A stretch of 64,000 nucleotides of DNA from Planctomycetota bacterium (lineage in GTDB: Bacteria > Planctomycetota > Phycisphaerae > Phycisphaerales > UBA1924): assembly GCA_038747915.1 (NCBI GenBank), contig JBCDJJ010000003.1, positions 19,740-83,739 on the forward strand. Reading direction: 5' to 3'. Made by a program: the position numbers and the translations under genes. The notes beneath the pieces are model-generated. The model saw only the letters and a program-made list of their open reading frames with translations. It did no database searches and was not told where the DNA came from. Each line of letters opens with the position of its first letter. The first letter of the stretch is position 1. Positions 5,267 to 42,272 of the stretch are shown here, in pieces.

Positions 5267-5272
5267 GCGCTG

Positions 5273-23977: not shown

Positions 23978-24009
23978 CGTTCGTCCCCGCACCCATCGGC
24001 GAGCCTCGC

Positions 24010-24786: not shown

Positions 24787-24810
24787 TCCTGTGGCAAAGG
24801 GACAGACACG

Positions 24811-26795: not shown

Positions 26796-26825
26796 GTCGA
26801 CGCGATCGCCCCAAGGACGCCTGGC

Positions 26826-27152: not shown

Positions 27153-27169
27153 ACACGAGAGCGAACCAC

Positions 27170-27487: not shown

Positions 27488-27536
27488 TGTGATTCATGAA
27501 CTGGCAGGTCACCCCAGCGAGTACGAGCGAGAACCG

Positions 27537-28594: not shown

Positions 28595-28599
28595 GCACG

Positions 28600-30582
28600 A
28601 TGTCGAGGGATGCCGGGCGACCCCCGCGATTCATCGAAGACGATCGGCTCGCGATGCTCCTGTTCGGTGGCAAGGGTGGTGTCGGCAAGACGACCTCCGC
28701 TTGCGCCGCAGCGGTGCGCCTCGCGATGGATCGTCCTCAGACGAGCGTCACGCTCATCTCCACCGATCCGGCGCACAGCACGAGCGATTGCCTCGGCGAT
28801 ACGGACGATCTTCCAGAGAACCTCGAGCTTGTCGAGCTTGATTCGGCTGCGGAGCAGGCTGCATTTATCTCCGAGCACGCGGATCAGCTGCGTGAGATCG
28901 CACTCCGCGGCACGTTCTTCGATGAGGAGGATGTCGACACATTCCTCGAACTCGCGGTGCCGGGTGCGGATGAGCTGATGGCGTTCCTGACACTGGCGCA
29001 CCACGCGGAGCGCATCGAGAACTCGCCGGGAGAGCCACGCGTGGTCGTGGTCGACACCGCCCCGACCGGCCACACGCTCCGGCTGCTCGCGATGCCCGAT
29101 CTGGTCGATCGATGGCTCGGCGCACTCGATGCCTTGCTCGCCAAGCACCGGTTCATGGCTTCGGCGTTCGGGTCAACGGGTGTGGATGAGGTCGAGCTGT
29201 TCCTTGCTCGGGTGACCGGGCAGGCCGAGTGCTTTGGCCGATTGTTGCGTGACGGTTCACGGTGTCAGTTCGTGCCGGTGTTCACACCCGAATCGCTCGC
29301 GGTGGCCGAGACGAATCGCTTAGTGACCGAACTCGAGCGGCTGGGCGTGGCATGCGACGAGGCGGTGCTGAACCGGCTTGTGCCGTCAGGTGAAGGCGAC
29401 CTTGGCGAAGCGATTCGCGCCGCGCAGCATCGCCAGCTCTCGGCGCTCGATGATTCGGTGCTCTGCCTCGACATCTGGGGACTGCCGGTGGCCCCGAGCG
29501 AGCCTGTGGGTCGGGCAGCACTTGCATCGTTGTGGGACCCGGGGCTTGCACCGGGCGGCATCACCGCGTGGCTTGCGAGCGATGTCGAACACGAGCCCGC
29601 GGAGGCACCGCGCGTCATGCAGGGCCGCGCATTGTCGCTTGATCCCAAGCGTCGGCTGCTGCTCGTGGCGGGTAAGGGCGGGGTGGGGAAGACGACGGTC
29701 GCATGCGCCGCGGCGATGGCCCTTGCTGCGGCGCGAAAGAAGGGCGATGTGCTCGTCGTCTCAACGGACCCTGCGCACTCGGTGGGTGATTGCTACGGCG
29801 TGTCGCTCACCGGGGAGCCGATCGAGATCGTGCCGCGCCTGCGAGCGATGGAGATCGACGCCGAGGCAGAGTTTGATCGGTTCCGTGAGCAGTACGAGCA
29901 GGAGATCGACGCGGCCCTCGGCTCCCTGATCGAGGGGGGCGACCTGACGTTCGATCGCGAGGCGATGTCTCGACTCGTGGATCTCGCGCCGCCGGGCATC
30001 GATGAGCTGATGGCCCTCGTACGCATCATCGACGAGCTCGACGGGGTCGTCGGCCGCACCATCGTGTTCGATACCGCGCCGACCGGGCACCTGCTCCGCC
30101 TGCTCGAGACGCCGGAGCTGGTCGAGTCGTGGCTAGCCGGCGTCTTCAAGCTCATGCTGAAGTACGAGTCGGTCGTTCGGGTCCCCCGGTTGCGTGATCG
30201 GTTGATCGAGCTGAGCAAGGGGATCAAGTCCGTGCGCACGATGCTGGGCACCGCAAAGTCGTCGTCACTCGTCGCGGTTTCCATCCCCACAAGACTGGCG
30301 GTCGAGGAGCTGAGCGATCTCGCACTCGCGATCCGTTCCATGGGTGTGGCCTTGGCGGGGGTGGTGATCAACCGGTGTACACCGGATGGTGGGGGTGTCA
30401 TCCTGAGCGGACAGGCCGAGGCGGAGCGCCACTGGATCGAGGTGGCCCGACGTGCGGTGCCGGATGCTGCACCGATATGCCTTACATGGGGGGGTGAGCC
30501 GGTGGGGATCGAGCGCCTTGGTGCGCTCGGGCGCGAACTCTTTGCTGTGCACCGTGGTGGTCTGCTTTCCTCAGCCGCATGA
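28600..30582 (+). CDS. Tandem two-domain ArsA/Get3-like P-loop ATPase embedded in the gvp cluster
   Basis: Two halves, each with a deviant Walker A GKGGVGKTT (LLFGGKGGVGKTTSACAAAV and LLVAGKGGVGKTTVACAAAM) and the ArsA/Get3 switch motif DTAPTGHT (twice). Confidence 0.85.
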   Translation: MSRDAGRPPRFIEDDRLAMLLFGGKGGVGKTTSACAAAVRLAMDRPQTSVTLISTDPAHSTSDCLGDTDDLPENLELVELDSAAEQAAFISEHADQLREIALRGTFFDEEDVDTFLELAVPGADELMAFLTLAHHAERIENSPGEPRVVVVDTAPTGHTLRLLAMPDLVDRWLGALDALLAKHRFMASAFGSTGVDEVELFLARVTGQAECFGRLLRDGSRCQFVPVFTPESLAVAETNRLVTELERLGVACDEAVLNRLVPSGEGDLGEAIRAAQHRQLSALDDSVLCLDIWGLPVAPSEPVGRAALASLWDPGLAPGGITAWLASDVEHEPAEAPRVMQGRALSLDPKRRLLLVAGKGGVGKTTVACAAAMALAAARKKGDVLVVSTDPAHSVGDCYGVSLTGEPIEIVPRLRAMEIDAEAEFDRFREQYEQEIDAALGSLIEGGDLTFDREAMSRLVDLAPPGIDELMALVRIIDELDGVVGRTIVFDTAPTGHLLRLLETPELVESWLAGVFKLMLKYESVVRVPRLRDRLIELSKGIKSVRTMLGTAKSSSLVAVSIPTRLAVEELSDLALAIRSMGVALAGVVINRCTPDGGGVILSGQAEAERHWIEVARRAVPDAAPICLTWGGEPVGIERLGALGRELFAVHRGGLLSSAA

Positions 30583-30640
30583 CGAGCCGATAACCGCTAT
30601 CGATCGGTCCCGTGTTGTCGTCCTTTGGGAGTTCGTCTCG

Positions 30641-30874
30641 ATGCCGCGCACGCGTCTTCACCAAGTAGCTCGTTCGTCCGGGAGGGCGCGGTGTATCGAG
30701 CCGCAGGAGACGATCCTGTGCGACGCGCTTGACCGTGTGCTCAGTGTCGGTGTGGCGGCGCGTGGCGACCTCGTGATCGCTGTGGCGGATGTGCCGCTGA
30801 TCAAGCTGAGCCTGGGTGTGTTGCTGGCCTCGGTCGAGACCGCCGAGGGCCGGATCGAGAGGGGGACACGATGA
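30641..30874 (+). CDS. Small GvpA-family protein (GvpS/GvpM-like), not called in the ORF track as a separate gene
   Basis: 77 aa: ILCDALDRVLSVGVAARGDLVIAVADVPLIKLSLGVLLASVETAEG matches the GvpA/J/M/S core (LxxxLDRxLxxGVxxxGDxxIxxxxVxLxxLxLxxxxASVE). ATGA overlap with the gvpK start. Confidence 0.6.
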   Translation: MPRTRLHQVARSSGRARCIEPQETILCDALDRVLSVGVAARGDLVIAVADVPLIKLSLGVLLASVETAEGRIERGTR

Positions 30875-31218
30875 CCCGATGCCCGACCGAACTCGAACCG
30901 CTGCTCTCGGCGCTGGAAGACGTGACCGCGGTGGACGACTCCGAGGCGGATGCCTCGCCGCGGCTCAACGTCGACCCCGCGGATGTGAAAAAGGGGCTCG
31001 GTCAGCTCGTGCTGACCGTGGTCCGGCTGCTGCACGAGCTGCTCGAGCGTCAGGCGATCCGTCGGATCGAGTCGGGCTCGCTGACCGATGACGAGGCCGA
31101 CCGACTCGGCACGACGATGAAGCTCCAAGCCGAGGAGATCGAGAAGCTCGCCGGCTACTTCGGGCTGCGCACCGAAGATCTGAACATGGACCTCGGCCCC
31201 CTCGGCAAGTTGATGTAA
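30871..31218 (+). CDS. gvpK: Gas vesicle protein GvpK
   Basis: GLGQLVLTVVRLLHELLERQAIRRIESGSLTDDEADRLG. Confidence 0.85.
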   Translation: MTRCPTELEPLLSALEDVTAVDDSEADASPRLNVDPADVKKGLGQLVLTVVRLLHELLERQAIRRIESGSLTDDEADRLGTTMKLQAEEIEKLAGYFGLRTEDLNMDLGPLGKLM

Positions 31219-31228
31219 GGCGCGTGCG

Positions 31229-31621
31229 ATGGCGATTCAGCAGGGTGGCCCGACCCACCTGAGCACAACCAACATCGCGGACCTACTCGAGCGTGTGCTC
31301 GACAAGGGTGTGGTCATCGCGGGTGATGTCAAGCTCAAGCTGCTCGACATTGAACTTCTCACGATTCAGCTCCGTTTGGTGGTGTGCTCGGTCGACAAGG
31401 CGCAGCAGATGGGCATCGACTGGTGGTCGCAGACCAAATCGCTGTGCGCACCGGAGGAGACACCACCGATCGAGGCGGGTACAGAGGCCGAGACCAAGCC
31501 CGCGCTGCCGTCGCCCGAAGAGCACGAGGCGCTGCAGCAACGAGTGGAGGAGCTTCAACAGCAACTCGAGCAGATCCAAACCGAGCAGCAGACCCCCTGG
31601 CGGAGACCCAAGACCCCATGA
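31229..31621 (+). CDS. gvpJ: Gas vesicle protein GvpJ (GvpA family)
   Basis: LADLLERVLDKGVVIAGDVKLKLLDIELLTIQLRLVVCSVDKAQQMGIDWW. Confidence 0.85.
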   Translation: MAIQQGGPTHLSTTNIADLLERVLDKGVVIAGDVKLKLLDIELLTIQLRLVVCSVDKAQQMGIDWWSQTKSLCAPEETPPIEAGTEAETKPALPSPEEHEALQQRVEELQQQLEQIQTEQQTPWRRPKTP

Positions 31622-32247
31622 TCGCCCGTGAGGCGCCCGGAGAGCGCCGACTCGTTGTCATCCCGATGCTGCACACCGAGACGGACCTCGGCGAGCTATC
31701 AGACCGTGTTCGGCGTGAGACCGTCGCCCATGCCGGTCGACGAGCGTGGGAGCGCAAGCAGCGTGCGATCGAGCGGCTATGGAGCGAGATCACCGAATGG
31801 TCGGAGCGTGTTGCGATCCCTGAGGCCGGCATGCGGCTCTACCAGGATGGTCTGCCGGTCTGCGGACCGGGCGAGCGCGATGTCACGCGCACCATCGTGG
31901 AGGATCTCGGTACACGCGGGAGCCTGAACCATCGCATCCTGCTGAGTCTCATCGAGCGCGGGGCGACGCTCGAGGGCACCGAGTCGCCAGAGTTGCTGCT
32001 CGCCGAGTATCGCTTGGCCCGGGGCGAGGCGGAGCAGGATGGTGATGGCACCCCCGCTGCGCACGATCTGCTCGAGCAACGTGACCGGTTCATCGCGCAG
32101 CGCATCGATGCCACGCTCGAGCCTCACCAGGTCGGCGTGCTGTTCATCGGGTATTTGCACAACATCCCGCCGCACCTGCCCGCAGGCATCACGGTCGAGC
32201 ACCCCTTCGACGTTGCCGAGGCCCTCAGCCAAGGAGCACACGCATGA
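31618..32247 (+). CDS. Hypothetical gvp-cluster protein
   Basis: 209 aa, coupled by ATGA overlaps to gvpJ upstream and hsp20 downstream. No recognised motif. Confidence 0.5.
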   Translation: MIAREAPGERRLVVIPMLHTETDLGELSDRVRRETVAHAGRRAWERKQRAIERLWSEITEWSERVAIPEAGMRLYQDGLPVCGPGERDVTRTIVEDLGTRGSLNHRILLSLIERGATLEGTESPELLLAEYRLARGEAEQDGDGTPAAHDLLEQRDRFIAQRIDATLEPHQVGVLFIGYLHNIPPHLPAGITVEHPFDVAEALSQGAHA

Positions 32248-32780
32248 GCACCGCCAACACCCCACCCGGATCGTCCGGCCACCCGTCGGGCGGCCAGCCC
32301 GCAGGGTTCCTTGATGGTCTAACTCGGCTGCTTCACACGATCGGCGAGCTCGCGGACAAGGGTGCCGAGCTGAAAGAGTCCGGACTGTTCGAGACAGAGT
32401 CGGGCAAGCAGGGCCGCGTGAACGTCGGCTTCTCGATCCGCACCGCGGGGACCGGTCAACCGGGCGAGGGCGGGCTCAAGGTCGAGCCGTTTGGCAACGT
32501 GCGGCGCAACCGCGAGACGGGCGAGGCGGAACTCGCTGCGGTGCGCGAACCGATCGTCGATGTGTTCGACGAGGAGGGCGAAGCGCTGCGTGTGGTGGCC
32601 GAACTGCCCGGTATCGATGAGAGCCAGGTGACTCTCCGCGCCGATGGGCGCACGCTCGTGCTCGAGGCCGAGGATGGCTCGAAGCGCTACCACGCCGAGG
32701 TCGAGCTCCCCCGCGAGGTGCGCGTGGAGGAGGCATCGATCTCGTGCAATAACGGGATCGCGGAGATCACCTTTTCTTGA
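32244..32780 (+). CDS. Hsp20/alpha-crystallin family protein (GvpH-like position)
   Basis: ACD: ALRVVAELPGIDESQVTLRADGRTLVLEAE...YHAEVELPREV...GIAEITF. AAGGAG SD. Confidence 0.85.
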   Translation: MSTANTPPGSSGHPSGGQPAGFLDGLTRLLHTIGELADKGAELKESGLFETESGKQGRVNVGFSIRTAGTGQPGEGGLKVEPFGNVRRNRETGEAELAAVREPIVDVFDEEGEALRVVAELPGIDESQVTLRADGRTLVLEAEDGSKRYHAEVELPREVRVEEASISCNNGIAEITFS

Positions 32781-32816
32781 GCGTGTGGACCACGCCTGTA
32801 TCACGATGAGTCGGAG

Positions 32817-34979
32817 ATGCGCCGGATGATCCGCAAGAGCCCTCCCGCAGCCGAGCTGACCCGCCGGGTCGCCGAGGCCCAGCCGAAGGATGTTGGCCGC
32901 GCCATCGCGCGCCTCGATCCCTCGGATCTGCGTGAGCTCGGTCTCGCGACGGGCGACACCGTCGAGGTGGTCGGTGCGCGGACGACCGTGTGCCGAGCGC
33001 TGCCGACACGGAAGTCCGACCGGTCCGCCGGCTCGGTTCACATCGATGGGATGACGCGCGAGAACGCGCGCGTCGGTGTCGATGCGGAGGTGGCGATTCG
33101 GCCGGTGCCGTGCCCACGGGCCGAGCGTGTGGTTCTTGAGCCAGAGGCCCGCCGCCCCGATGGGAAGGAGCTGGCGTACATCGCATCGCTGCTCGATGGG
33201 CTGCCGGTTTCGTCTGGTGACCGCGTGCGGGTGAACACCTTCGGTAATCGCCCGATGCACTTCCGTGTGAAGCGCACGATGCCGGATACGGCGTGCGTCG
33301 TCGCCTCGAGCACCGCGCTGGAACTCGTGGGCGGGTCATCGAGTAGCAGCCGAGCGAAGCGGGACGCACCCGCTGCAACGCCGGCGAGCGTCTCGTACGA
33401 GGATGTCGGTGGTCTGGGCAAGCAGGTGCATCGCATCCGGGAGACGATCGAGCTCCCGCTGCGCTTCCCCGAGGTGTTCGATCGCTTGGGGATCGATCCG
33501 CCTAAGGGCGTGCTGCTGCACGGCCCGCCCGGGTGCGGCAAGACACTCATCGCCCGCGCGATCGCGCACGAGACCAATGCCAACTTCTTCGTGATCTCCG
33601 GGCCCGAGATCGTACACAAGCACTACGGCGAGTCGGAGGCCAATCTCCGCAAGGTGTGGGCCGAGGCGACGCGTCAGGGTCCATCGATCGTGTTCATCGA
33701 CGAGATCGACTCGATCGCGCCCAAGCGGGAGCAGACACAGGGCGAGGTGGAGAAGCGGATCGTCGCGACGCTTCTTACCTTGATGGACGGGCTCGAAGCC
33801 CGGCGGGGTGTTGTCGTGCTCGCTGCGACTAACCTGCCGAACAACCTCGACCCCGCCCTGCGGCGACCCGGGCGATTTGACCGGGAGATCGAGATCCCGG
33901 TGCCCGACGCGATCGGTCGTGGTGAGATCCTCGATGTGCATACGCGCGGCATGCCGCTCGCGGCCGATGTTGATCTGGATCGAGTCGCCCAGATTACACA
34001 CGGGTGCGTCGGGGCCGATCTCGAGTCACTGTGCCGTGAGGCAGCGATGCACTGTCTCCGCCAGATCATGGGGGAGATCGACTTCGTCACCGGTGATGTG
34101 CCCTACGAGAAGCTCGCCTCGCTCACGGTCTCGATGAACGATTTCGTGGCCGCGTTCGCCGAGGTCACGCCGAGCGCTCTGCGTGAGGTATTCGTCGAGA
34201 CACCGCGTGTGTCGTGGGACGATGTCGGCGGTCTCGAGGATGTAAAAGCCAAACTGGTTGAATCGGTCGACTGGCCCGTGCGGCACGCAGCACTCTTTGA
34301 AGAGGCGAAGCTCCGTCCACCCCGCGGTGTGATGCTCGCCGGCCCTCCGGGTGTGGGGAAGACGCTGATCGCCAAGGCCACCGCGAGCCAGCTCGGCGCC
34401 AACTTCATCTCGGTGAAAGGCCCGGAGCTGCTGTCGCAGTTTGTGGGCGAGTCGGAGCGAGCGATGCGCGAGGTGTTCCGAAAGGCGCGGCTGGCCTCGC
34501 CATGTGTGATTTTCCTTGACGAGGCGGATGCGCTGCTGCCTAAACGCTCCGGTTCAGCGACCGATGGCGGCGTGCGCGAGCGTGTGGCGGCTCAATTCCT
34601 CACGGAGATGGACGGCATCGAGGAGCTGCGCGGCGTGCTTGTGCTCGCGGCGACGAATCGGCTGGACATCATCGATCCTGCGGCGCTCCGGCCGGGACGG
34701 TTCGATCACGTGATCGAGCTCGGCCTGCCGACACCGGTCGATCGCGAACGCATCTTCGCGGTCCATCTGCGCGATCGCCCGACGGGCACGGCAGTCACAG
34801 CTGAAGTGCTGGCGGAGCTCGCCGGCGATGTGAGCGGAGCAGAGATCGCGGGTGTGTGCGACCGGGCCGCGATGCTCGCGGTGCGAGACAGCGTGTCGGG
34901 CGGTGCCCCGATCCGAATGACGCTCGAACACTTCCGGGGCGCAATGCGCGACATCCTCGGCGTGGAGATCGAATCATGA
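32817..34979 (+). CDS. CDC48/VAT-type AAA+ ATPase (N-domain plus D1 and D2)
   Basis: CDC48 N-domain TRRVAEAQPKDVGRAIARLDPSDLRELGLATGDTVEVVG. Two Walker A motifs, GPPGCGKTLIARAIAHE and GPPGVGKTLIAKATAS, plus two second-region-of-homology segments. Confidence 0.85.
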   Translation: MRRMIRKSPPAAELTRRVAEAQPKDVGRAIARLDPSDLRELGLATGDTVEVVGARTTVCRALPTRKSDRSAGSVHIDGMTRENARVGVDAEVAIRPVPCPRAERVVLEPEARRPDGKELAYIASLLDGLPVSSGDRVRVNTFGNRPMHFRVKRTMPDTACVVASSTALELVGGSSSSSRAKRDAPAATPASVSYEDVGGLGKQVHRIRETIELPLRFPEVFDRLGIDPPKGVLLHGPPGCGKTLIARAIAHETNANFFVISGPEIVHKHYGESEANLRKVWAEATRQGPSIVFIDEIDSIAPKREQTQGEVEKRIVATLLTLMDGLEARRGVVVLAATNLPNNLDPALRRPGRFDREIEIPVPDAIGRGEILDVHTRGMPLAADVDLDRVAQITHGCVGADLESLCREAAMHCLRQIMGEIDFVTGDVPYEKLASLTVSMNDFVAAFAEVTPSALREVFVETPRVSWDDVGGLEDVKAKLVESVDWPVRHAALFEEAKLRPPRGVMLAGPPGVGKTLIAKATASQLGANFISVKGPELLSQFVGESERAMREVFRKARLASPCVIFLDEADALLPKRSGSATDGGVRERVAAQFLTEMDGIEELRGVLVLAATNRLDIIDPAALRPGRFDHVIELGLPTPVDRERIFAVHLRDRPTGTAVTAEVLAELAGDVSGAEIAGVCDRAAMLAVRDSVSGGAPIRMTLEHFRGAMRDILGVEIES

Positions 34980-35806
34980 ACCAATCTGGTGGTCCTGCCG
35001 TCAAGTCGCGGTTTGCGGTCGAGCCCAAGCCGGAGTCGTCGCCGTCGCCTATCTACGCAGCGGCGCTGCTACCGCCGGATGCGCCCGCGATCGAGGCACC
35101 GGGGATCGAGCAAGGCCTGACGCTCCGCACGGTGGAGATCGGCGGGTGGTGTGCGTTTGCAGGTGTGGTTGGCCTCTCGATGTTCATGGGCGACGACGCC
35201 GAGCAACGGCTCCAAGACCCTGCGTGGCTCACCCCGCGTGCGATCGCGCACGAGCGGGCACTGCTCGAGGCCCGGACACACGTCGACCTGCTCCCGCTCC
35301 CATTCGGCACGGTGTTCCACTCGCTCGACTCGCTCGCAGACCGGTGCGATCGTCACGCCGAGGTACTCGCCGACTTCTTCGCCAGAACCTGCGGCGCCTC
35401 CGAATGGTGCATCAAGGTGACAGCGAGCCGGCGTGACGCGATCGAGCACGAGGTCGAGTCGCGTTTAAACCTCGAAGTCGGGGCCGAGGCGAGCGGCGCC
35501 GCGTACCTCCGCGCTCAGGCACGTCGCCGCGCGATCGAGACCGAGGTGCTCCACGATCTCTCGGCCTTCGCCGATGAACAGGCCGACCGGCTCGATGCGA
35601 TCGCTCGCGATAGCTCGGATCGGCGTCAGACATCGGGAGAGCCCGACATCGAGACACTCGCGCACTGGGCATTCCTTGTCGATCGCCGCGAGAGCGAGCG
35701 GGTGTCCGAGCTCACGCGAGAGATCAACCACGGTGCGCCCTCCGGCGTGCGTTTCGATCTCGCGGGCCCGTTCCCGCCGTACAGCTTCACCCCACGGTTG
35801 AGCTGA
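34976..35806 (+). CDS. Gas vesicle protein GvpF/GvpL family (second copy)
   Basis: WLTPRAIAHERALLEARTHVDLLPLPFGTVFHSL. ATGA overlap with the cdc48-like stop. Confidence 0.75.
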   Translation: MNQSGGPAVKSRFAVEPKPESSPSPIYAAALLPPDAPAIEAPGIEQGLTLRTVEIGGWCAFAGVVGLSMFMGDDAEQRLQDPAWLTPRAIAHERALLEARTHVDLLPLPFGTVFHSLDSLADRCDRHAEVLADFFARTCGASEWCIKVTASRRDAIEHEVESRLNLEVGAEASGAAYLRAQARRRAIETEVLHDLSAFADEQADRLDAIARDSSDRRQTSGEPDIETLAHWAFLVDRRESERVSELTREINHGAPSGVRFDLAGPFPPYSFTPRLS

Positions 35807-35841: not shown

Positions 35842-35904
35842 GTTGTGTATCGCACAACGTTCGGCGCATGAAAACACTGCACTCCCTTGTGCGGGCGTGC
35901 AGTG
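35842..35904. terminator. Two hairpins in the convergent gap between gvpF2 and pyp (candidate bidirectional terminators)
   Basis: GTTGTG-TATCG-CACAAC at 35842-35858, and CACTGCAC...GTGCAGTG (8-bp arms) at 35875-35904. No clear U-tract. Confidence 0.25.
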
Positions 35905-35944
35905 TGCGGGTGTGTGTCGGGGAGTCGTGGCCGAGGTTCCGGGC

Positions 35945-36349
35945 TCAGCCGGCGACTTTGACGAAGATCCAGTTCGTCTTACTGGCCGGATCGCGGTAGA
36001 GGTGGATGTTGACCGCGGTGGGCTTCATCTTGAAGGTGAAGGTGTAGGGGAAGGCGAGGTTGAGCTGATCGGCGGCGACGCCCTTCTTGAACGAGCCGAA
36101 GAAGAGGCCGTTGTTCGAGCAGGGGGCGACCTGGGTGAAGAAGTTGCGGCCCTCGGCCTGGCTGGCGGGGATGCCAGCGAGGTTCTGCTCGTACTGGTTG
36201 TAAAGCAGGATCTTGCCGGCTTCGTCGGTCTTGATGATCCCGAAGTCGTAGCCGTCCGCGTCGCCGCGGGAGAGGTTTCCGAGTCGAGAGAACAGTTCGT
36301 CGGGGACAAAGGTGCCGTTCTGGCTGGCGGTGTTCATCATGACGCTCAT
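35945..36349 (-). CDS. pyp: Photoactive yellow protein (PAS-domain blue-light photoreceptor)
   Basis: FGIIKTDEAGKILLYNQYEQNLAGIPASQAEGRNFFTQVAPCSNNGLFFGSFKKGVAADQLNLAFPYTFTFKMKPTAVNIHLYRDPASKTNWIFVKV. It has the NFF..VAPC chromophore-Cys motif and close colinearity with Halorhodospira PYP. Confidence 0.85.
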   Translation of the reverse strand: MSVMMNTASQNGTFVPDELFSRLGNLSRGDADGYDFGIIKTDEAGKILLYNQYEQNLAGIPASQAEGRNFFTQVAPCSNNGLFFGSFKKGVAADQLNLAFPYTFTFKMKPTAVNIHLYRDPASKTNWIFVKVAG

Positions 36350-36690
36350 TCGTGTGCTCCTTGATTCAGATGCTCTTTCCATTCGGCCCGCATGACGGGC
36401 TTGTCGTCCACGATCTCGAGCGAGATCGACTTCTCGGAGAACTGCGCATCCAGGTGCTCAGCGAGCTGATTCACCTGCACGAGCAGGGCGGCGGCGGTCG
36501 ATCCGTCGGCATCGGCGATGCCTCCGAATCGCTGGTAGAGGTCGCAGAGCTGCGCCTCCAGACTACGGACCATGTTGAGAATCCCGTCGGCATCGCACAC
36601 ACCGATCTGGCTCGCGAGCTGCTCACGCTCGGCGTAGATCGATTCGAGCTGGTGCAGCGTGCCGCCGGTCTCGTTGCTGATGTTCTGCAT
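36346..36690 (-). CDS. Hypothetical protein co-operonic with pyp
   Basis: 114 aa. Its stop overlaps the pyp start by 4 nt. No recognisable domain. Confidence 0.5.
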   Translation of the reverse strand: MQNISNETGGTLHQLESIYAEREQLASQIGVCDADGILNMVRSLEAQLCDLYQRFGGIADADGSTAAALLVQVNQLAEHLDAQFSEKSISLEIVDDKPVMRAEWKEHLNQGAHE

Positions 36691-36723
36691 TCGATGTTCC
36701 TCGTGTATCGTGGCCCGAGCGGA

Positions 36724-37134
36724 TCAGGCGGCCTTGGCCCGATCCACTCGGTCGGAGATGAACGTGACGATCGTGTCAACGTCTTCCGGATCCGCGTGCT
36801 GCTCGACCACGTCGATCAGCACACTGATCCCCGAACCACGGAGCATGGACGGCTGGTCGGGCTGACCAGTCCGGAACATCGCGTAGTTCATCTTGGTGTT
36901 CAGGCCCATCCACTGGGTCTTGAAATCGATGAAGTAGGAGGCCGCGATCGAGCGGTGCTCCTCCTCCTCGTCCGTCGACTGGAGATCATGCACGACCTTG
37001 TCACGAAGGCTGTTCACCCACTGACGGGTCTCGCTGATCGCGCCCGAGTCGAATCCTTCCACTTCGATGGCGCCGTTCACGCGCTCATCGAAGGTTGCAG
37101 CGTTGAGCTGCTCAATCAAGCTACTTGCGTTCAT
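36724..37134 (-). CDS. Hypothetical protein, first gene of the pyp operon
   Basis: 136 aa, acidic. No recognisable domain. Confidence 0.5.
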   Translation of the reverse strand: MNASSLIEQLNAATFDERVNGAIEVEGFDSGAISETRQWVNSLRDKVVHDLQSTDEEEEHRSIAASYFIDFKTQWMGLNTKMNYAMFRTGQPDQPSMLRGSGISVLIDVVEQHADPEDVDTIVTFISDRVDRAKAA

Positions 37135-37405
37135 GGGGCTTCTCCGATGGGTTGGCTCACCACAGGACTGAGGAGTTGGTCGGTCGAGGCGCCTCGCTCG
37201 TTCATCTCAACGACAACCCTTCATGCAAATCGATGTAAATCCCCAAGGACCGGGGAGCACCCGTATGCCGTCGCGCACCGATCGACCGGCAATCGAACCA
37301 CGGAGCACGAAGCACACCGTGAAGGGTCGCTTCCTCTCATCGAGCGCACCCGAGAGGCCGATAGCACAGACGCGCACGCCGGGCGACGAGACGCGAGTGA
37401 CCGAG

Positions 37406-38848
37406 ATGCCACCCAAAGCTATCTGCACCCACGAGGTCATCCGTGAGCGGCTCTACAACTCGCTTACGTCGAGCCCGGCGCCGGTCTTCTTCTTCGGTGA
37501 GAGCGCCATCCCCGGGCCGTCGATCTGGACCGCAGCGCGGAAGTGGGTGTCGATGTTCCGGCACCTCGGCGTGGCGCCGGGCGAGCGCGTCGTGCTCTCC
37601 CTTGATCCGGGGCCAGGGTTTCTCGCAGCACTCGTCGCTGGAATCTGGGAGGAGTTCACGCTCGTGCTCCCGGGCTTCGGTGATCGGCCGGAAGAAGTCG
37701 CCGACGAGACCAAGGCCCGCCTGATCCTCGACGAGGAGACCACCGCCGGGCGTCCGGGCACCGTCACGCAGATGCCCTTGTTCGTGACCGAACCCACTCC
37801 CGCTGCACGGTTTCTACTCCGATCGAGCGGCACGAGCGGTCGCTCGGACCGCTTCGTCGCGCTCTCGAACGAGAACATCCTGGCGGTGGCTGAGAGCCAC
37901 CAGTACGCCGTCCCGCCCGAGGGTAGCGTGGCGCTCTCGCTCCTCCCCTGGAACCACGCCTTCGGGCTGGTGCTCGAGCTGCTCCCGGCGCTCTGGTCGA
38001 CCACCATGTTCGTGCGCACACAGGATGCCGCGCGTGACCCAGCCATCGCGCTCGAATGGTCGAACAGGTTTGATGTCCGGTGGGCAAACATGGTGCCGCT
38101 GCAGGCGGCGCGGCTCGCCGCGTCATCGGGCGGGCTCGCATGGCTGCGTGGGCTCGACGGCGGCATCGTTGGTGGAGCGCCCGTCGATGGTGCGCTCGCC
38201 GATGTGCTCGCGACCACCAAGCTCCGTCCCGGGTACGGTCAGACCGAGGCATCACCGGGCATCACGCTCGGCGAGCCCGGCGAGTGGGGGGACCGGTGCA
38301 TCGGTCAGCCGGTCGGGTGCGAGACAGAGATCACACCAGATGGTGAACTCGTCGTGACGGGACCGAACGTCTGCCTTGGTGTGTGGGAACACGGGGCCCT
38401 GACCGAGTTCGATCCCAATCGCGCACTGCACACAGGCGATCTCGTCGAGCGTCTGCCCTCGGGCTCACTCGCCTTCGTGGGTCGGACCGATCATCGCTTC
38501 AAGCTGTCCAACGGCCGGTTGGTGGACGCACCGGCGCTCGAGCGCGACCTCGACGGCGTGGTGCTGCTGCCGGATGAGGGCGGCGCCGGCGTTGTCCTGG
38601 CCCTCGAGCCCGGGGCCGACGCCGGGCCCGATGTGCTGGAGTATCTCGGACGCATCCCAGCACGCACGATTCGGCTTGCCGAGGCGGCGCCCAGAACACG
38701 AAAGGGTGAGATCGATCGCCGAGCGCTCCAAGAGCGCATCCGATCCAACGACACACCACGGAGCACGCATGATCCCAGCGAGCACGCGTCCAACGACACG
38801 CCGGCCGATCTCGGTGACGCCACCATCGACTCACGCCGAGCCGCCTGA
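37406..38848 (+). CDS. pcl: AMP-dependent synthetase/ligase; candidate 4-coumarate-CoA ligase for PYP chromophore activation
   Basis: AMP-binding motif LLRSSGTSGRSDRFVALS. Position beside pyp and the ammonia-lyase mirrors pyp-pcl-tal clusters. Confidence 0.7.
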   Translation: MPPKAICTHEVIRERLYNSLTSSPAPVFFFGESAIPGPSIWTAARKWVSMFRHLGVAPGERVVLSLDPGPGFLAALVAGIWEEFTLVLPGFGDRPEEVADETKARLILDEETTAGRPGTVTQMPLFVTEPTPAARFLLRSSGTSGRSDRFVALSNENILAVAESHQYAVPPEGSVALSLLPWNHAFGLVLELLPALWSTTMFVRTQDAARDPAIALEWSNRFDVRWANMVPLQAARLAASSGGLAWLRGLDGGIVGGAPVDGALADVLATTKLRPGYGQTEASPGITLGEPGEWGDRCIGQPVGCETEITPDGELVVTGPNVCLGVWEHGALTEFDPNRALHTGDLVERLPSGSLAFVGRTDHRFKLSNGRLVDAPALERDLDGVVLLPDEGGAGVVLALEPGADAGPDVLEYLGRIPARTIRLAEAAPRTRKGEIDRRALQERIRSNDTPRSTHDPSEHASNDTPADLGDATIDSRRAA

Positions 38849-40358
38849 AGATGGCCTGCTCCAGCTCGGCCCGGATCACAGGCTGTACCCCGAGGATGTC
38901 GTCGCGGCGTCGTACCAAGCTCGACCGGCGCTCTGTCTAAGCGAGGCAGCAACCCAGGCGATCATCAGCGCGCACGCGGCGCTCGAACGGCTGGTCGAGC
39001 AGGGTCGCGAGATCTACGGCCTCACGACTGGCTTTGGACCCTTCGTCGCGTGCCGTGCCTCGACCGATCCAAGCCGCCAGGGGCTCGGGCTGATCAATCA
39101 CCTCGCCTCGGGGTGGGGTGACCCGGCACCAGCCGAGATCGTTCGAGCCGCGATGATTCTCCGTGCCCAGACCGTCGCGCAAGGCTTCTCTGGCATCGAG
39201 CCGAGGGTCGCTGAGGCGTTCGTCGAGCTGATCACAGCCGGTGTGGCGCCGGCGGTCCCGGAGATCGGGAGCGTTGGCGCGTCGGGCGACCTCATCCCCC
39301 TCGCCCACGTCGTGCAGTGCCTGGCGGGTCGTGGCGAGGCGCTCGATGCCGAGGATGCACTCGTCCCAGCGGCGAAGGCCCTTGCCAGTGCTGGGCTCGA
39401 ACCGACCGAACTCGGCGCCCGCGATGCGCTCTCGCTCGTCAACGGCACCGCGTTCATGACCGCCTACGCGGTCCACGCACTGATCGCTGCGGAACGGGTG
39501 CTCGATCGCGCCGAAGAACTCACCGCGTGGATCTACCGCCTCTTCGCCGCCCGAACCCAACCGCTCGACGACCGCTTGCACTCGGCCCGCGGGCACGCCG
39601 GGCAGCGCGCCGCTGCAGCACGGATCACCGGGCACATCGATGCGCACGGCGGCGTCGTCCCCGATGAGCACAGACCGCTCCAAGAGGTGTATTCCGTGCG
39701 GTGCGCACCCCAGTGGCTGGGCGCGGCCCGCGAGCAGTTGGCCCACGCACGCCGACTCATCGAGGTCGAGATCAACGGTATCTCAGACAACCCGGTGGTC
39801 ATCGCTGCGAACCACGCGCACGGCACGTCCGACGATGTGATCCATGGCGGCAACTTCCAGGGCACGCAGATCGCCTTCGCCACCGACGCGATCAACACCG
39901 CGCTGGTGCATACCGCGTTGCTCGCCGAGCGCCAGATCGACGTGCTGAGCAATCCCGAACTCAATATGGGCGCGCCGCTCCTGCTTGCCCGAGAGCCCGG
40001 GCCTGATGCGGGCATCGCGGGCGTACAGATCACCGCCACGGCGCTCGTCGCCGAGATGCGGCTCGGCGCGCAGCCCGCAGCGATCGCCTCGATCCCGACC
40101 AACGGGCGAAACCAGGATGTGGTCAGCATGGGCACCGTCGCGGCACGGAACGCGCACGCACAGGTCGATCGGGCAGCCGGCGTGCTCGCTGCGTGCGCAC
40201 TCGCCGCCGCGCAGCTCGACCATCGCCGACGCACAGGGCTCGCACCCGGCCCGTCGGCCGATGGGCCACGCTGGGCCGAGGTCTACACGCCGTTCGAGGC
40301 CGATCGTCCAACGCGTCGAGACCTCCAGAGGCTGTCCCAAGCGATCCTGACCGATTGA
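38769..40358 (+). CDS. tal: Aromatic amino-acid ammonia-lyase (HAL/TAL family); candidate tyrosine ammonia-lyase
   Basis: MIO-forming triad GSVGASGDLIPLAHV, plus IYGLTTGFG and NGTAFMTAYA. Start uncertain: an in-frame GTG at 38816 is an alternative, and the ORF overlaps the pcl 3' end. Confidence 0.8.
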   Translation: MIPASTRPTTRRPISVTPPSTHAEPPEDGLLQLGPDHRLYPEDVVAASYQARPALCLSEAATQAIISAHAALERLVEQGREIYGLTTGFGPFVACRASTDPSRQGLGLINHLASGWGDPAPAEIVRAAMILRAQTVAQGFSGIEPRVAEAFVELITAGVAPAVPEIGSVGASGDLIPLAHVVQCLAGRGEALDAEDALVPAAKALASAGLEPTELGARDALSLVNGTAFMTAYAVHALIAAERVLDRAEELTAWIYRLFAARTQPLDDRLHSARGHAGQRAAAARITGHIDAHGGVVPDEHRPLQEVYSVRCAPQWLGAAREQLAHARRLIEVEINGISDNPVVIAANHAHGTSDDVIHGGNFQGTQIAFATDAINTALVHTALLAERQIDVLSNPELNMGAPLLLAREPGPDAGIAGVQITATALVAEMRLGAQPAAIASIPTNGRNQDVVSMGTVAARNAHAQVDRAAGVLAACALAAAQLDHRRRTGLAPGPSADGPRWAEVYTPFEADRPTRRDLQRLSQAILTD

Positions 40359-40409: not shown

Positions 40410-41258
40410 ATGATATACTTGGATACGAAGAATGTCCGGCCACGGCCTGTAATCCTTGTTCTGTGGATGGCCTTCGCTATCCCCCTCGCAGTGGGGGGCT
40501 GCCTCGGCCCACGGCTGTCAGGAGGACCGGCGTTGGAGCCAAGCGATGATCCCGCCTCGTTCATGTCGCCGACTCGCGTGATCGATTCTGATGCTCCGGT
40601 GATTCGCGAGACGGCCGCGTCGATTGTTGAAGGCCTCGAGTCGGATATCGAGCGTGCTGTGGCGATCCATGACTTCGTGCGCGATGAGATCGACTTTGGT
40701 TGGCAAGTGTCTTTTTATGAGAGCAGAGCGAGTGAGGTACTTCAGGCCGGGATTGGGTACTGCAACACCAAGTCGACCCTGTTCATTGCGTTGCTGCGTT
40801 CTCAGGGGATTCCTGCGCGACACATGTTTGTTGACCTTGATTCGAAGCTCCTCGCGGGGGTAGTCAATCCGGGTACGCCGTACGTGGACCACTCCTACGC
40901 AGAGGTGTATCTGAATGGCGAGTGGATACGGACCGACAGCTATGTGGTTGATCGGCCGCTCTTTGACGCCGCCCAGAAGCGCCTTGAAGCAGAGGGTCGG
41001 CTCATTGGATACGGCGTCCATGCGAACGGAACCATCGACTGGTCTGGTACTGCGGACGCGTTTAGCCAGTTCGTCGATGATGGATCGAGTCCTCACTTCA
41101 CAACACGGTCGTACGGGATTCATAGCGATGTGATCTCTTTCTACAGAGACGAACCAGACACCTGGAACGAACTCAGCCTCGGCATGCGAGTGCTCATGCG
41201 GGTCGCAGCGCCGCAAGCAAATCGTGCTGCAGACCGGCTTCGAACCGAGGGAGGCTGA
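40410..41258 (+). CDS. Transglutaminase-like domain lipoprotein
   Basis: Lipobox LAVGGC. Transglutaminase core GYCNTKSTLFIALLRSQGIPARHMFV. Confidence 0.7.
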   Translation: MIYLDTKNVRPRPVILVLWMAFAIPLAVGGCLGPRLSGGPALEPSDDPASFMSPTRVIDSDAPVIRETAASIVEGLESDIERAVAIHDFVRDEIDFGWQVSFYESRASEVLQAGIGYCNTKSTLFIALLRSQGIPARHMFVDLDSKLLAGVVNPGTPYVDHSYAEVYLNGEWIRTDSYVVDRPLFDAAQKRLEAEGRLIGYGVHANGTIDWSGTADAFSQFVDDGSSPHFTTRSYGIHSDVISFYRDEPDTWNELSLGMRVLMRVAAPQANRAADRLRTEGG

Positions 41259-41729: not shown

Positions 41730-42272
41730 TCAGCCCCCAAGCCTCGCGAGCATGTCGTCGCACCATTGGATCGTTGCGCGGCAGAGGCGATCACCAAGTT
41801 CCGCGGTCATCAGCCGTTGCGCAGCAGAAAAAGCTGAGGCATCTTCGGTCCTGAGCCGGTGCTGAATCGACTGTAGACGATCCAGGCCCTCAATATGATG
41901 CTCTCGATACGCTCGAATATGGCTGACGAGCGAGTCGCGATCTTGGTGGCCGCCAAAGAAGATCTTCATGGCGAATTCGTTGCGGGTCAGAGTCGGCGCG
42001 AAGTCCTGTGCAAGCCAGTCGCGGAGGTGCTCGAGACCGCGTGCTGTCGGCTTCATGACTCTTCGCGAGGGATGATCGCCATCCGACCCCGCCTGTTCCC
42101 GAATCAGTCCTTCTCCCTCGAGACGATGGAGCGTGGGGTAGATCGATCCAAAGCTCTCATTCCAGAACATTCCAACTGAACTCTGGATTCGCTCGCGTAG
42201 GTCGTAGCCGGACATCGGCTCGATAGAGAGCCAGCCGAGGATCGCATATCTGGTCGCAGATGGCCGCGGCAT
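41730..42272 (-). CDS. PadR family transcriptional regulator
   Basis: TRYAILGWLSIEPMSGYDLRERIQ...SIYPTLHRLEGEGLI winged helix. Confidence 0.8.
   Translation of the reverse strand: MPRPSATRYAILGWLSIEPMSGYDLRERIQSSVGMFWNESFGSIYPTLHRLEGEGLIREQAGSDGDHPSRRVMKPTARGLEHLRDWLAQDFAPTLTRNEFAMKIFFGGHQDRDSLVSHIRAYREHHIEGLDRLQSIQHRLRTEDASAFSAAQRLMTAELGDRLCRATIQWCDDMLARLGG

What the first reader, a model, noticed from the sequence alone, without database searches (positions are those of the whole stretch)
35945..37134. PYP is the last gene of a three-gene operon with two unknown small proteins
On the minus strand a 136-aa acidic protein (36724..37134) and a 114-aa protein (36346..36690) precede pyp. The second ORF's stop overlaps the pyp start codon by 4 nt, so the three are almost certainly co-translated. 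Neither has a recognisable domain. PYP normally lacks a known dedicated partner except in Ppr-type fusions. These could be the downstream signal-transduction partners that couple PYP photochemistry to the neighbouring gvp genes.
Basis: partly seen in the sequence, partly recalled or inferred. Interest (0 to 1): 0.7.

Follow-up and report, generated by a model that had tools for sequence, protein, structure and literature searches.

The report
Conserved two-protein companion set for PYP
The two small unknown genes upstream of the blue-light sensor gene pyp are real and belong to two undescribed protein families that travel with pyp in several bacterial phyla and are sometimes fused to PYP-like or CheA-like proteins, so they are strong candidates for the missing signalling partners of this model photoreceptor.

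Summary
ORF1 (136 aa), ORF2 (114 aa) and pyp (134 aa) lie head-to-tail on the minus strand. Each has a Shine-Dalgarno-like purine-rich motif, ORF2 and pyp share an ATGA stop/start overlap, and a hairpin plus U-tract follows pyp. Neither ORF matches Pfam, NCBIfam or PDB sequences, but an exhaustive HMMER search found 272 relatives.

ORF1-ORF2-pyp(-pcl-tal) recurs in Planctomycetota MAGs. Rearranged forms occur in a high-GC Myxococcaceae-type locus and a Bacteroidota MAG. In all 18 PYP-containing loci of this clade, an ORF2 N-terminal hairpin gene sits directly upstream of pyp.

Fusion proteins join the parts as CheA-like–ORF1, ORF1–ORF2N and (ORF2N)n–PYP-like. I therefore read ORF2 as the PYP-proximal partner and ORF1 as an adaptor to CheA-like or MCP scaffolds. 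That step is inferred.

Only 6 of 21 loci carry gvp genes, so the gas-vesicle link is a local output and not the core. Neither ORF is homologous to PBP, the one known PYP-binding protein, from Rhodobacter capsulatus (hhalign probability ≤0.3%).

Verdict: two new PYP-linked families and a testable route to PYP signalling. No binding has been shown.

The parts
36724..37134 (-). ORF1: 136-aa acidic all-helical protein, founding member of an undescribed family (core motif YIELKSxWIxLNTxxNY)
   Evidence: ORF and GC3 0.81. No Pfam or NCBIfam hit. 45-sequence alignment A2 with invariant W75. AF2 model pLDDT 96, six helices. Syntenic homologues at E down to 1e-51. Fused to ORF2N or to CheA-like P3-P4-P5 in other organisms.
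36346..36690 (-). ORF2: 114-aa acidic protein. It has an N-terminal ~50-aa helical hairpin (ORF2N, QLxxLYAERExL..G.SDA..I..MVRSLExQLxDLY), then a third helix and a C-terminal beta-hairpin (..KSVxxE....PVLRAxW).
   Evidence: ORF and GC3 0.80. No Pfam or NCBIfam hit. Alignment A1. AF2 model pLDDT 73: H5-29, H34-55, H64-81, E86-94, E97-105. The hairpin occurs directly upstream of pyp in all 18 PYP-containing loci of this clade and as tandem repeats fused to PYP-like domains.
35945..36349 (-). pyp: photoactive yellow protein, 134 aa. Its start overlaps the ORF2 stop (ATGA).
   Evidence: TIGR02373 hit at 2.8e-30 (105 bits, below cut-off 143) and Pfam PAS. Cys69/Tyr42/Glu46 equivalents align with H. 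halophila PYP. 59-74% identical PYPs occur in other Planctomycetota.
35870..35905 (-). Hairpin plus UUUU downstream of pyp, a probable operon terminator facing the end of gvpL/F
   Evidence: strand folding MFE -29.1 kcal/mol, z = -3.07. Not called by the strict consensus scan, because its loop exceeds 8 nt and it has only 4 U.
37223..38848 (+). pcl: p-coumarate-CoA ligase-like AMP-binding enzyme, divergent from ORF1. The true start is probably near 37406.
   Evidence: Pfam AMP-binding 1.4e-20. Homologues follow pyp in L008, L009, L011, L012, L014, L015, L021, L023, L024, L026 and L027 (in L026 by Pfam AMP-binding in the gene calls, not by the pCL search) and align only from about residue 55-77.
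38574..40358 (+). tal: aromatic amino-acid (tyrosine) ammonia-lyase for chromophore synthesis. The longest-ORF start is probably too far upstream.
   Evidence: Pfam Lyase_aromatic 4e-136. Conserved next to pcl and pyp in most related loci.
23586..35806 (+). Gas-vesicle gene cluster (gvpA-like, GvpN-like AAA, GvpF/L, GvpG, ArsA-like, GvpJ/A, GvpK, GvpA, GvpH, CDC48-like AAA, GvpL/F), convergent with the pyp operon
   Evidence: Pfam hits. A gvp cluster lies next to the module in only a subset of related loci: L001, L010, L012, L017, L024.
20880..23477 (-). CheA-like protein (P3/P4/P5-type C-terminus, long acidic N-terminus), divergent from the gvp cluster. It is the candidate docking scaffold for ORF1.
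   Evidence: Pfam HATPase_c + CheW. Matches CheA structures at E = 4e-22, but the N-box reads QILRYSATTSIE against HLVRNSLDHGIE and the ATP-lid region is shortened. Related CheA-like genes sit beside ORF1-ORF2-pyp in L003/L007, L011, L013 and L026 and are fused to ORF1 in P0083, P0123, P0141 and P0145.

Best explanation
ORF1, ORF2 and pyp form one photosensory operon.

**Chromophore supply.** TAL and pCL, transcribed divergently, make p-coumarate and attach it to PYP Cys69.

**ORF2.** It is made in fixed proportion with PYP through translational coupling. It is the PYP-proximal partner. Its N-terminal helical hairpin is the element that always accompanies this clade of PYP, and it probably self-associates (helix-loop-helix-like) and binds PYP or holds it in a complex.

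**ORF1.** This compact helical bundle is an adaptor that links ORF2/PYP to a chemotaxis-type scaffold. Here that scaffold is the CheA-like, probably non-catalytic protein at 20880..23477. In other genomes it is a sensor-less MCP or a CheA-like protein.

**Proposed signal path.** Light-driven changes in PYP would pass along PYP -> ORF2 -> ORF1 -> CheA-like/MCP complex. In this genome the likely downstream target is gas-vesicle formation, that is light-dependent buoyancy. In others it is motility, a hybrid histidine kinase or c-di-GMP turnover.

**Shown:** gene reality, operon anatomy, conservation, fusions.

**Inferred:** every physical contact, the direction of signalling and the output.
For: **1. 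Operon anatomy.**
- Shine-Dalgarno-like motifs precede all three genes, and ORF2 and pyp share an ATGA overlap.
- The 4-nt overlap is conserved in L003, L024, L026 and L027.
- A terminator-like hairpin follows pyp.

**2. Synteny.**
- Of 15 GTDB species genomes found with an ORF1 pattern, 11 carry ORF2(N) and pyp next to ORF1, and 1 more is cut at a contig end with an ORF2 fragment.
- Of 4 loci seeded from PYP instead, 4 of 4 have an ORF2N gene directly upstream of pyp and 3 of 4 have ORF1 within 4 kb.
- The triad also occurs in a 71% GC Myxococcaceae-type locus as MCP-ORF2N-PYP-ORF1-hybrid HK.

**3. Fusions among the 150 best cluster representatives other than the window's own two proteins.**
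- 28 are (ORF2N)n::PYP-like.
- 14 combine ORF1 and ORF2N in one protein. One of these, P0004, is probably a mis-called ORF2-pyp-ORF1 operon.
- 4 are ORF1::CheA-like (P3-P4-P5), with the ORF1 domain scoring E = 1e-37 to 1e-41.
- No genuine ORF1::PYP fusion was seen, which gives the order CheA-like–ORF1–ORF2N–PYP.
- L027 has an ORF1::ORF2N fusion overlapping the pyp start. L028 has pCL-TAL-ORF1::CheA.

**4. Structure.**
- ORF1 gives a confident helical bundle (pLDDT 96).

**5. Precedent.** R. capsulatus PBP, a small acidic protein encoded directly upstream of pyp beside a gvp cluster, binds photoactivated PYP (10.1101/2021.06.01.446672; locus).

**6. Charge.** ORF1 and ORF2 have pI about 4.5 and PYP 7.8.
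Against: - No experiment or complex prediction was possible, so every contact is inferred from gene order and fusions.
- All loci were reached through ORF1, or through PYPs most like this one, so the association holds for this PYP clade only. R. capsulatus has neither family. H. halophila-type loci were not examined.
- Three ORF1 loci (L010, L013, L017) have pcl and/or tal but no ORF2 or pyp within 8 kb. L001 has ORF2-tal without pyp in 20 kb. This would also fit a role tied to chromophore supply.
- In the (ORF2N)n::PYP-like fusions the chromophore cysteine is almost always replaced: Ser or Gly in 16 of 28, Cys in 1. The fused domain is therefore not a working light sensor, and the fusion is weaker as evidence of a contact with true PYP.
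- The CheA-like neighbour lacks the catalytic N-box residues, so the biochemical output is unclear.
- ORF1 shows no similarity to Hpt domains, and its fold search returns only generic helical bundles.
Confidence: 0.55

Rival explanations
1. ORF1 and ORF2 are maturation or assembly factors for holo-PYP. They would hold apo-PYP or deliver p-coumaroyl-CoA, working with TAL and pCL, and would not be signal transducers.
For: pcl and tal are the most constant neighbours. ORF1-pcl-tal occurs without pyp in L010 and L017, ORF2-tal in L001, and pcl-tal-ORF1::CheA in L028.
Against: From established knowledge (Kyndt et al. 2003, cited in PMC9664959), TAL and pCL alone suffice for heterologous holo-PYP production. 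Fusion of ORF1 to CheA-like cores, and of ORF2N repeats to PYP-like domains that lack the chromophore cysteine, makes little sense for a loading factor.
Confidence: 0.15
2. ORF2N hairpin proteins (with ORF1) are structural scaffolds that cluster or localise PYP, for example into a filament or polar patch, without relaying the signal themselves.
For: Proteins with up to about 12 tandem hairpins exist (P0006). 18 representatives consist of hairpin repeats only. The ORF2 monomer model is not compact (pTM 0.34), and its weak analogues are dimerising helix-loop-helix hairpins.
Against: Fusion of ORF1 to CheA-like proteins and constant proximity to MCP, CheA-like, HK or GGDEF genes point to signalling. 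A scaffold role and a transducer role do not exclude each other.
Confidence: 0.15
3. The two proteins are gas-vesicle accessory or regulatory proteins that happen to share an operon with pyp.
For: In the window, L001, L010, L012, L017 and L024 the module abuts a gvp cluster.
Against: Fifteen of the 21 distinct loci carrying these families, including L003/L007, L008, L011, L023, L026, L027 and L030, have no gvp gene within reach, although several contigs are short. Neither protein hits any Gvp Pfam family. The R. capsulatus gvp/pyp locus lacks both families.
Confidence: 0.04
4. The ORFs are chance open frames in GC-rich DNA or annotation artefacts.
For: High-GC DNA produces long spurious ORFs. 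One such ORF (36352..37446, +) overlaps this region.
Against: The codon-position GC is that of real genes. There are 272 relatives at E <= 1e-3. Synteny and amino-acid conservation hold across phyla.
Confidence: 0.01

Closest known systems
PYP-binding protein PBP of Rhodobacter capsulatus (RCAP_rcc01067)
   Same: A small acidic protein (142 aa, 16 kDa) encoded immediately upstream of pyp, in a locus that also holds pcl, tal and a convergent gvp cluster. PBP binds photoactivated PYP (10.1101/2021.06.01.446672). It is predicted to have N-terminal helices plus beta-strands, as ORF2 is.
   Different: No sequence relationship: hhalign probability is 0.3% against the ORF2 family and 0.1% against the ORF1 family, and no HMM hit occurs anywhere in the R. 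capsulatus locus. Rc-PYP belongs to clade A of Xing et al. (PMC9664959); the window's PYP looks closer to the Salinibacter/Leptospira type (APCSNN and FPYTF motifs), by eye only.
PAS sensor plus sensor-less chemoreceptor pairs (CetB/CetA of Campylobacter; the model proposed for Leptospira PYP + MCP in PMC9664959)
   Same: A stand-alone PAS/PYP sensor is encoded beside chemotaxis-type signalling proteins that have no sensory domain of their own. MCPsignal-only genes flank the module in L023, L025 and L030, and CheA-like genes in the window, L003, L011, L013 and L026.
   Different: Here two extra conserved proteins lie between sensor and scaffold. The CheA-like partner appears catalytically degenerate.
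CheA P1 (Hpt) domain
   Same: In P0083, P0123 and P0145 the ORF1 domain occupies the N-terminal position in front of P3-P4-P5, where P1/P2 sit in CheA. It is a helical bundle of similar size.
Ppr/Ppd-type PYP fusion proteins
   Same: A PYP or PYP-like domain is covalently joined to other signalling modules.
   Different: In Ppr and Ppd the partners are bacteriophytochrome with kinase or GGDEF/EAL domains. Here the partner is a tandem array of a new ~50-aa hairpin placed N-terminal to the PYP-like domain, and that domain usually lacks Cys69.

Membership tests
Photoactive yellow protein (TIGR02373 / PAS_PYP), for the third gene | Chromophore-binding Cys69 in the APC motif, plus Tyr42 and Glu46 | tested here: met
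   Alignment with H. halophila PYP..ILLYNQYEQN.. and ..VAPCSNN...
Photoactive yellow protein (TIGR02373 / PAS_PYP), for the third gene | Score above the curated family cut-off | tested here: not met
   105 bits against a cut-off of 143.05, so this is a divergent clade. NCBI names it only 'PAS domain-containing protein' (P0174).
Photoactive yellow protein (TIGR02373 / PAS_PYP), for the third gene | Chromophore genes tal and pcl nearby | tested here: met
   AMP-binding ligase at 37223..38848 and aromatic ammonia-lyase at 38574..40358.
PBP (R. capsulatus PYP-binding protein), for ORF2 or ORF1 | Sequence homology to RCAP_rcc01067 | tested here: not met
   hhalign probability 0.3% (A1) and 0.1% (A2). 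HMM search of the whole R. capsulatus locus gives noise only.
PBP (R. capsulatus PYP-binding protein), for ORF2 or ORF1 | Small acidic protein encoded directly upstream of pyp | tested here: met
   ORF2: 114 aa, pI 4.5, stop overlapping the pyp start. PBP: 142 aa, 24 nt upstream of Rc pyp.
PBP (R. capsulatus PYP-binding protein), for ORF2 or ORF1 | Light-dependent binding to PYP | not testable with these tools
   Needs purified proteins.
Hpt / CheA P1 domain, for ORF1 | Conserved phospho-accepting His in an HxxKG-type helix | tested here: not met
   No invariant or near-invariant His in 45 sequences. The conserved positions are W75, K72, N79, T80, S104, I122, L126 and P129.
Hpt / CheA P1 domain, for ORF1 | Profile or fold similarity to Hpt | tested here: not met
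Gas-vesicle (Gvp) proteins, for ORF1 and ORF2 | Match to a Gvp family model, or strict co-occurrence with gvp clusters | tested here: not met
   No Pfam hit. 15 of the 21 distinct loci carrying these families have no gvp gene in reach.
CheA histidine kinase, for the neighbour at 20880..23477 | P3-P4-P5 architecture | tested here: met
   HATPase_c + CheW. E = 4e-22 to E. coli CheA, covering dimerisation, ATPase and CheW-like regions.
CheA histidine kinase, for the neighbour at 20880..23477 | Catalytic N-box (H..N..DHG) and the F/G2 ATP lid | tested here: not met
   HLVRNSLDHGIE aligns to QILRYSATTSIE, and the lid region is shortened. The G1 motif DDGxG is kept.

The most novel reading that the evidence does not exclude
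The ORF2 N-terminal hairpin is the dedicated PYP-docking motif of a whole PYP clade found in Planctomycetota, Myxococcota and Bacteroidota. ORF1 is a new adaptor domain that plugs the PYP-ORF2 complex into non-catalytic CheA-like/MCP arrays. This would be a complete, previously unrecognised photosensory pathway. In this planctomycete it would switch gas-vesicle formation and so give light-controlled buoyancy.
Probability: 0.3. Interest if true: 0.85.

Novelty: new variant of a known kind. Interest (0 to 1): 0.72.

Why it matters
PYP has been a textbook model photoreceptor for decades. Yet how single-domain PYPs pass on their signal is still called unknown in the 2022 family survey (PMC9664959) and in a 2026 paper (PMC13250908). 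The only reported binder, PBP, is confined to the Rhodobacter type.

This work defines two protein families that are unannotated in Pfam and NCBIfam. They are linked to pyp by operon structure, by synteny across phyla and by a chain of domain fusions (CheA-like–ORF1–ORF2N–PYP-like). That yields specific, cheap experiments: pairwise binding in dark and light. It also suggests that PYP signalling in these lineages runs through chemotaxis-like scaffolds.

The work further shows that the PYP-gas vesicle neighbourhood arose in two distantly related lineages (Alphaproteobacteria and Planctomycetota) with unrelated upstream partner genes. This supports light-regulated buoyancy as a recurring use of PYP.

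Tried and rejected
- **Pfam and NCBIfam scans of ORF1 and ORF2:** nothing at E <= 0.1.
- **Word-indexed homology search:** ORF1 found only itself and ORF2 found one relative. This gave a misleading impression of orphans, which the exhaustive HMMER search corrected.
- **Translating ORF1 through ORF2 as one reference:** A typed concatenation with X was accepted.
- **PDB sequence-profile searches with both families:** only coiled-coil or designed-protein noise.
- **Foldseek against afdb50:** intended to find R. capsulatus PBP by fold, but the library is unavailable.
- **ORF1 as an Hpt domain:** rejected. No ORF1-like region was found in the N-terminus of the window's CheA-like protein.
- **ORF2 or ORF1 as PBP:** rejected after recovering the R. 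capsulatus locus.
- **PYP profile search to reach Rc-PYP:** it was not among the 120 hits listed.
- **Plasmid collection:** ORF2 has no match, and the plasmid PYPs are of other types.
- **Genome scan with the full ORF1 alignment:** A 10-sequence core alignment worked.
- **Consensus promoter and terminator scan of the operon:** no calls.
- **PBP sequence from the paper's supplement:** held only as an image.
Full report
**1. What is in the sequence**

The window comes from a Planctomycetota MAG. NCBI names ORF1 and ORF2 'hypothetical protein' AAGI30_00905 and AAGI30_00900.

Three ORFs follow each other on the minus strand:

| Gene | Coordinates | Length |
|---|---|---|
| ORF1 | 37134..36724 | 136 aa |
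| ORF2 | 36690..36346 | 114 aa |
| pyp | 36349..35945 | 134 aa |

- Each start is preceded by a purine-rich ribosome-binding motif: GGAGAA 37145..37140, GAGGAA 36702..36697 and AAGGAG 36362..36357 (read).
- A stable hairpin followed by UUUU lies after pyp (about 35905..35870, -29.1 kcal/mol, z = -3.07). The strict consensus scan did not call it.
- Codon-position GC content is that of real genes: GC3 is 0.81 for ORF1 and 0.80 for ORF2, with GC2 0.39 and 0.36. The long antisense ORF 36352..37446 has a shadow-ORF pattern.
- An independent gene caller made the same three calls.

The third gene is a PYP. TIGR02373 gives 2.8e-30, although its 105 bits fall below the curated cut-off of 143. Tyr42, Glu46 and Cys69 equivalents are present.

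**2. Surroundings**

- Divergent from ORF1 are an AMP-binding ligase (pcl, 37223..38848) and an aromatic ammonia-lyase (tal, 38574..40358). These are the two chromophore genes.
- Convergent with pyp is a gas-vesicle cluster on the plus strand, 23586..35806. It holds GvpA/J-type proteins, GvpN-like AAA, GvpF/L, GvpG, ArsA-like, GvpK, GvpH, a CDC48-like AAA and GvpL/F.
- At the far side of that cluster, again divergent, is a CheA-like gene at 20880..23477 with HATPase_c and CheW domains.

**3. The two small proteins are not orphans**

- Pfam, NCBIfam and PDB sequence profiles give nothing.
- The word-indexed search found almost nothing.
- An exhaustive HMMER search with ORF1 and ORF2 concatenated found 272 cluster representatives at E <= 1e-3 and 71 at E <= 1e-10.

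Both families align well.

- ORF1 has a core AxxYIELKSxWIxLNTxxNYxxFRxG...ITxFLAxP with an invariant Trp (A2).
- ORF2 has an N-terminal hairpin motif, QLxxLYAERExL..G.SDA..I..MVRSLExQLxDLY, called ORF2N here. A C-terminal part ending ..KSVxxE....PVLRAxW follows it (A1).

The AlphaFold2 models differ in quality.

- ORF1 is a very confident six-helix bundle (pLDDT 96, pTM 0.87).
- ORF2 has three helices plus a beta-hairpin, at pLDDT 73 and pTM 0.34. This is what one expects of a protein that folds in a complex.

**4. Conservation next to pyp**

A pattern scan of one genome per GTDB species with the ORF1 core returned 15 loci. Fourteen are Planctomycetota (Phycisphaerae, Isosphaeraceae/Singulisphaera and unclassified MAGs). 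One is labelled a Janthinobacterium MAG.

I scanned six-frame translations with HMMs built from A1 and A2, and with the window's PYP, pCL, TAL and Gvp proteins. The arrangements were:

| Arrangement | Loci |
|---|---|
| ORF1-ORF2-PYP, usually followed by pCL and TAL | L007, L008, L009 (duplicated ORF2-PYP), L011, L012, L014, L015, L020, L021 |
| ORF1 divergent from ORF2N-PYP | L016, L018 |
| ORF1 divergent from an ORF2 fragment at the contig end, no PYP visible | L019 |
| ORF1 with pcl and/or tal, no ORF2 or PYP within 8 kb | L010, L013, L017 |

I then started from PYPs of this clade, picking them for long contigs and different taxon labels:

| Locus | Source | Arrangement |
|---|---|---|
| L023 | Tepidisphaerales | ORF2-PYP-pCL-TAL, with a divergent MCP-HDOD-ORF1 operon |
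| L024 | Tara Oceans | ORF1-ORF2-PYP-pCL-TAL with a convergent gvp cluster, i.e. the window's gene order and convergent gvp cluster, except that pcl-tal follow pyp instead of diverging from ORF1 |
| L025 | Bacteroidota MAG | A 61-aa single hairpin directly upstream of PYP, with an MCP nearby |
| L026 | — | CheA-like gene divergent from ORF1-ORF2-PYP-pCL-TAL |

Two more loci extend the range.

- L030 has 71% GC, and its ORF1 cluster includes a Myxococcaceae MAG protein. It reads sensor-less MCP – ORF2N repeats – PYP – ORF1 – hybrid histidine kinase – response regulator, with tal and pcl divergent.
- The only relative found by the word-indexed search (L001) has ORF2 upstream of tal beside a gvp cluster and an MCP. 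It has no pyp in its 20 kb.

Overall, every PYP-containing locus of this clade that I examined (18 distinct loci) has an ORF2N-bearing gene directly upstream of pyp. The 4-nt stop/start overlap recurs in L003, L024, L026 and L027.

There is a caveat. These loci were reached through ORF1 or through the most similar PYPs. The statement therefore concerns this PYP clade, not all PYPs.

**5. Domain fusions**

I classified the 150 best representatives other than the window's own two proteins:

| Architecture | Count |
|---|---|
| ORF1 alone | 55 |
| ORF2 (N + C) | 24 (+2 with an N-terminal extension) |
| ORF1 and ORF2N in one protein | 14 |
| Hairpin repeats only | 18 |
| 2 to about 12 hairpins followed by a C-terminal PYP-like domain | 28 |
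| ORF1 fused in front of a CheA-type core (H-kinase_dim/HATPase_c/CheW) | 4 |
| Two tandem ORF1 domains | 2 |
| ORF1 plus other sequence (>200 aa) | 3 |

- The ORF1+ORF2N proteins usually end in a short beta-hairpin like ORF2. One of them, P0004, is probably a mis-called ORF2-pyp-ORF1 operon.
- Genomic context agrees. L027 is ORF1::ORF2N overlapping the start of a true pyp, followed by pcl and a PAS-GGDEF-EAL gene. L028 is pcl-tal-ORF1::CheA.
- L022 has a 1266-aa (ORF2N)x12::PYP-like protein followed by two true PYPs.
- No genuine ORF1::PYP fusion appeared. The fusions therefore form a chain: CheA-like – ORF1 – ORF2N – PYP(-like).
- One complication: the fused PYP-like domains nearly always lack the chromophore cysteine. 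Of 28, 10 have Ser, 6 Gly and 1 Cys, and the rest have another residue or an unrecognised motif.

**6. How it most likely works**

The following is shown:

- real genes and a three-gene operon;
- conserved translational coupling of ORF2 and pyp;
- synteny across phyla;
- fusion architectures.

The following is inferred:

- ORF2 binds PYP, with its hairpin as the recognition or oligomerisation element.
- ORF1 bridges ORF2 to a chemotaxis-type scaffold.
- Light-induced changes in PYP are passed along that chain.

In the window the scaffold candidate is the CheA-like protein at 20880..23477. Aligned to E. coli CheA (8c5v), its N-box HLVRNSLDHGIE reads QILRYSATTSIE and the ATP-lid region is shortened, although DDGxG is kept. 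It is therefore probably non-catalytic.

The output then remains open. The position of both the operon and the CheA-like gene around the gvp cluster makes light-dependent buoyancy the natural guess for this organism. Elsewhere the neighbours are MCPs, a hybrid kinase or a GGDEF-EAL protein, and only 6 of 21 distinct loci show gvp genes. Gas vesicles are thus one output among several.

**7. Comparison with what is known**

The single experimental precedent is R. capsulatus PBP (RCAP_rcc01067). It is a 142-residue acidic dimer encoded next to pyp, and it binds the UV-generated long-lived state of Rc-PYP (10.1101/2021.06.01.446672).

- The PBP sequence is only an image in the paper. I recovered the locus through an exact look-up of Rc-PYP.
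- A 142-aa, 16.0-kDa protein is encoded 24 nt upstream of pyp. Two unknown genes and pcl follow pyp, then a convergent gvp cluster. Upstream lie tal, gvpA, a small MCPsignal protein and a PAS protein.
- The layout logic matches the window, but PBP is unrelated to either family. hhalign probability is 0.3% for ORF2 and 0.1% for ORF1, and no HMM hit occurs in the locus.
- The 2022 census of the PYP family reports pcl/tal, MCP, GGDEF and kinase neighbours. It mentions neither Planctomycetota nor these proteins (PMC9664959).
- The PYP-gvp neighbourhood was already noted for R. capsulatus and Loktanella (PMC3646047, citing Kyndt et al. 2004).

**8. Verdict**

'Partners of PYP' is well supported by comparative evidence but unproven biochemically. 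'Coupling to gvp' is a local feature and not the core of the system.

The two proteins found two undescribed families. Together with a CheA-like or MCP scaffold they look like a new variant of a photoreceptor-adaptor module. This is of real interest, because it makes the old question of PYP's downstream partners directly testable for a whole clade.

Noticed in passing
window 20880..23477 (-): A CheA-like protein (HATPase_c + CheW) whose N-box lacks the catalytic His/Asn/Asp-His-Gly residues (QILRYSATTSIE) and whose ATP-lid region is shortened, so it is probably a pseudokinase. Similar CheA-like genes flank the ORF1-ORF2-pyp operon in L003/L007, L011, L013 and L026. By eye, the Hpt-like helix upstream has Asp (Asn in L003) where the phospho-His would be.
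   Followed up: partly
L022:643-4443 and 4464-5969; representatives P0006-P0010 and others: Large proteins carry up to about 12 tandem ORF2N hairpins and a C-terminal PYP-like domain in which Cys69 is replaced (mostly Ser or Gly). In L022 such a protein is followed by two true PYPs with N-terminal extensions. The contig is very acidic with 64% GC, so possibly from a halophile; taxon not verified.
   Followed up: partly
L029 (Rhodobacter capsulatus, GCA_000506425.2) 5104-19086: The R. capsulatus pyp locus reads PBP-pyp-two unknown genes-pcl with a convergent gvp cluster, and tal, gvpA, a 184-aa MCPsignal-only protein and a PAS protein upstream. The logic matches the window, but the small protein upstream of pyp is unrelated.
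   Followed up: partly
L010:8001-15339 and L017:7905-16158: ORF1-pcl-tal sits directly beside a gvp cluster with no ORF2 or pyp within 8 kb. Either pyp lies elsewhere in those genomes or ORF1 can work without it.
   Followed up: no
window 41730..42272 (-) and 40410..41258 (+): A PadR-family regulator and a transglutaminase-like protein lie just downstream of tal. Some PadR regulators respond to phenolic acids such as p-coumarate (from general knowledge). No link was tested.
   Followed up: no
window 37223..37405 and 38574..38848: The longest-ORF starts of pcl and tal are probably too far upstream. Homologues align only from about residue 55-77 of pCL and about 89-122 of TAL. The real ORF1/pcl divergent promoter region may therefore be about 270 bp, and the apparent 275-nt pcl/tal overlap is probably not real.
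   Followed up: partly
window 28600..30582 (+) and 32817..34979 (+): The gvp cluster contains a duplicated ArsA-type ATPase and a CDC48-type double-AAA ATPase. The same pair occurs in the gvp cluster of L001, and the CDC48-type gene alone is visible at L010, L012, L017 and L024, where the flank ends before the ArsA position.
   Followed up: no
L009:5209-9175: A tandem duplication: ORF2-PYP followed by ORF1-ORF2-PYP-pcl-tal in one Phycisphaerales MAG.
   Followed up: no
L021 (MAG labelled Janthinobacterium lividum) 7311-9527: ORF1-ORF2N-PYP-pcl lies on a 10-kb contig of a betaproteobacterial MAG. It is the only non-Planctomycetota hit of the genome scan and could be horizontal transfer or a binning error.
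   Followed up: no
protein P0004 (430 aa): A representative that reads ORF2-like N-terminus, then out-of-frame PYP-like low-complexity sequence, then an ORF1-like C-terminus. It is probably a mis-called ORF2-pyp-ORF1 operon in a high-GC genome and would be another gene order.
   Followed up: no
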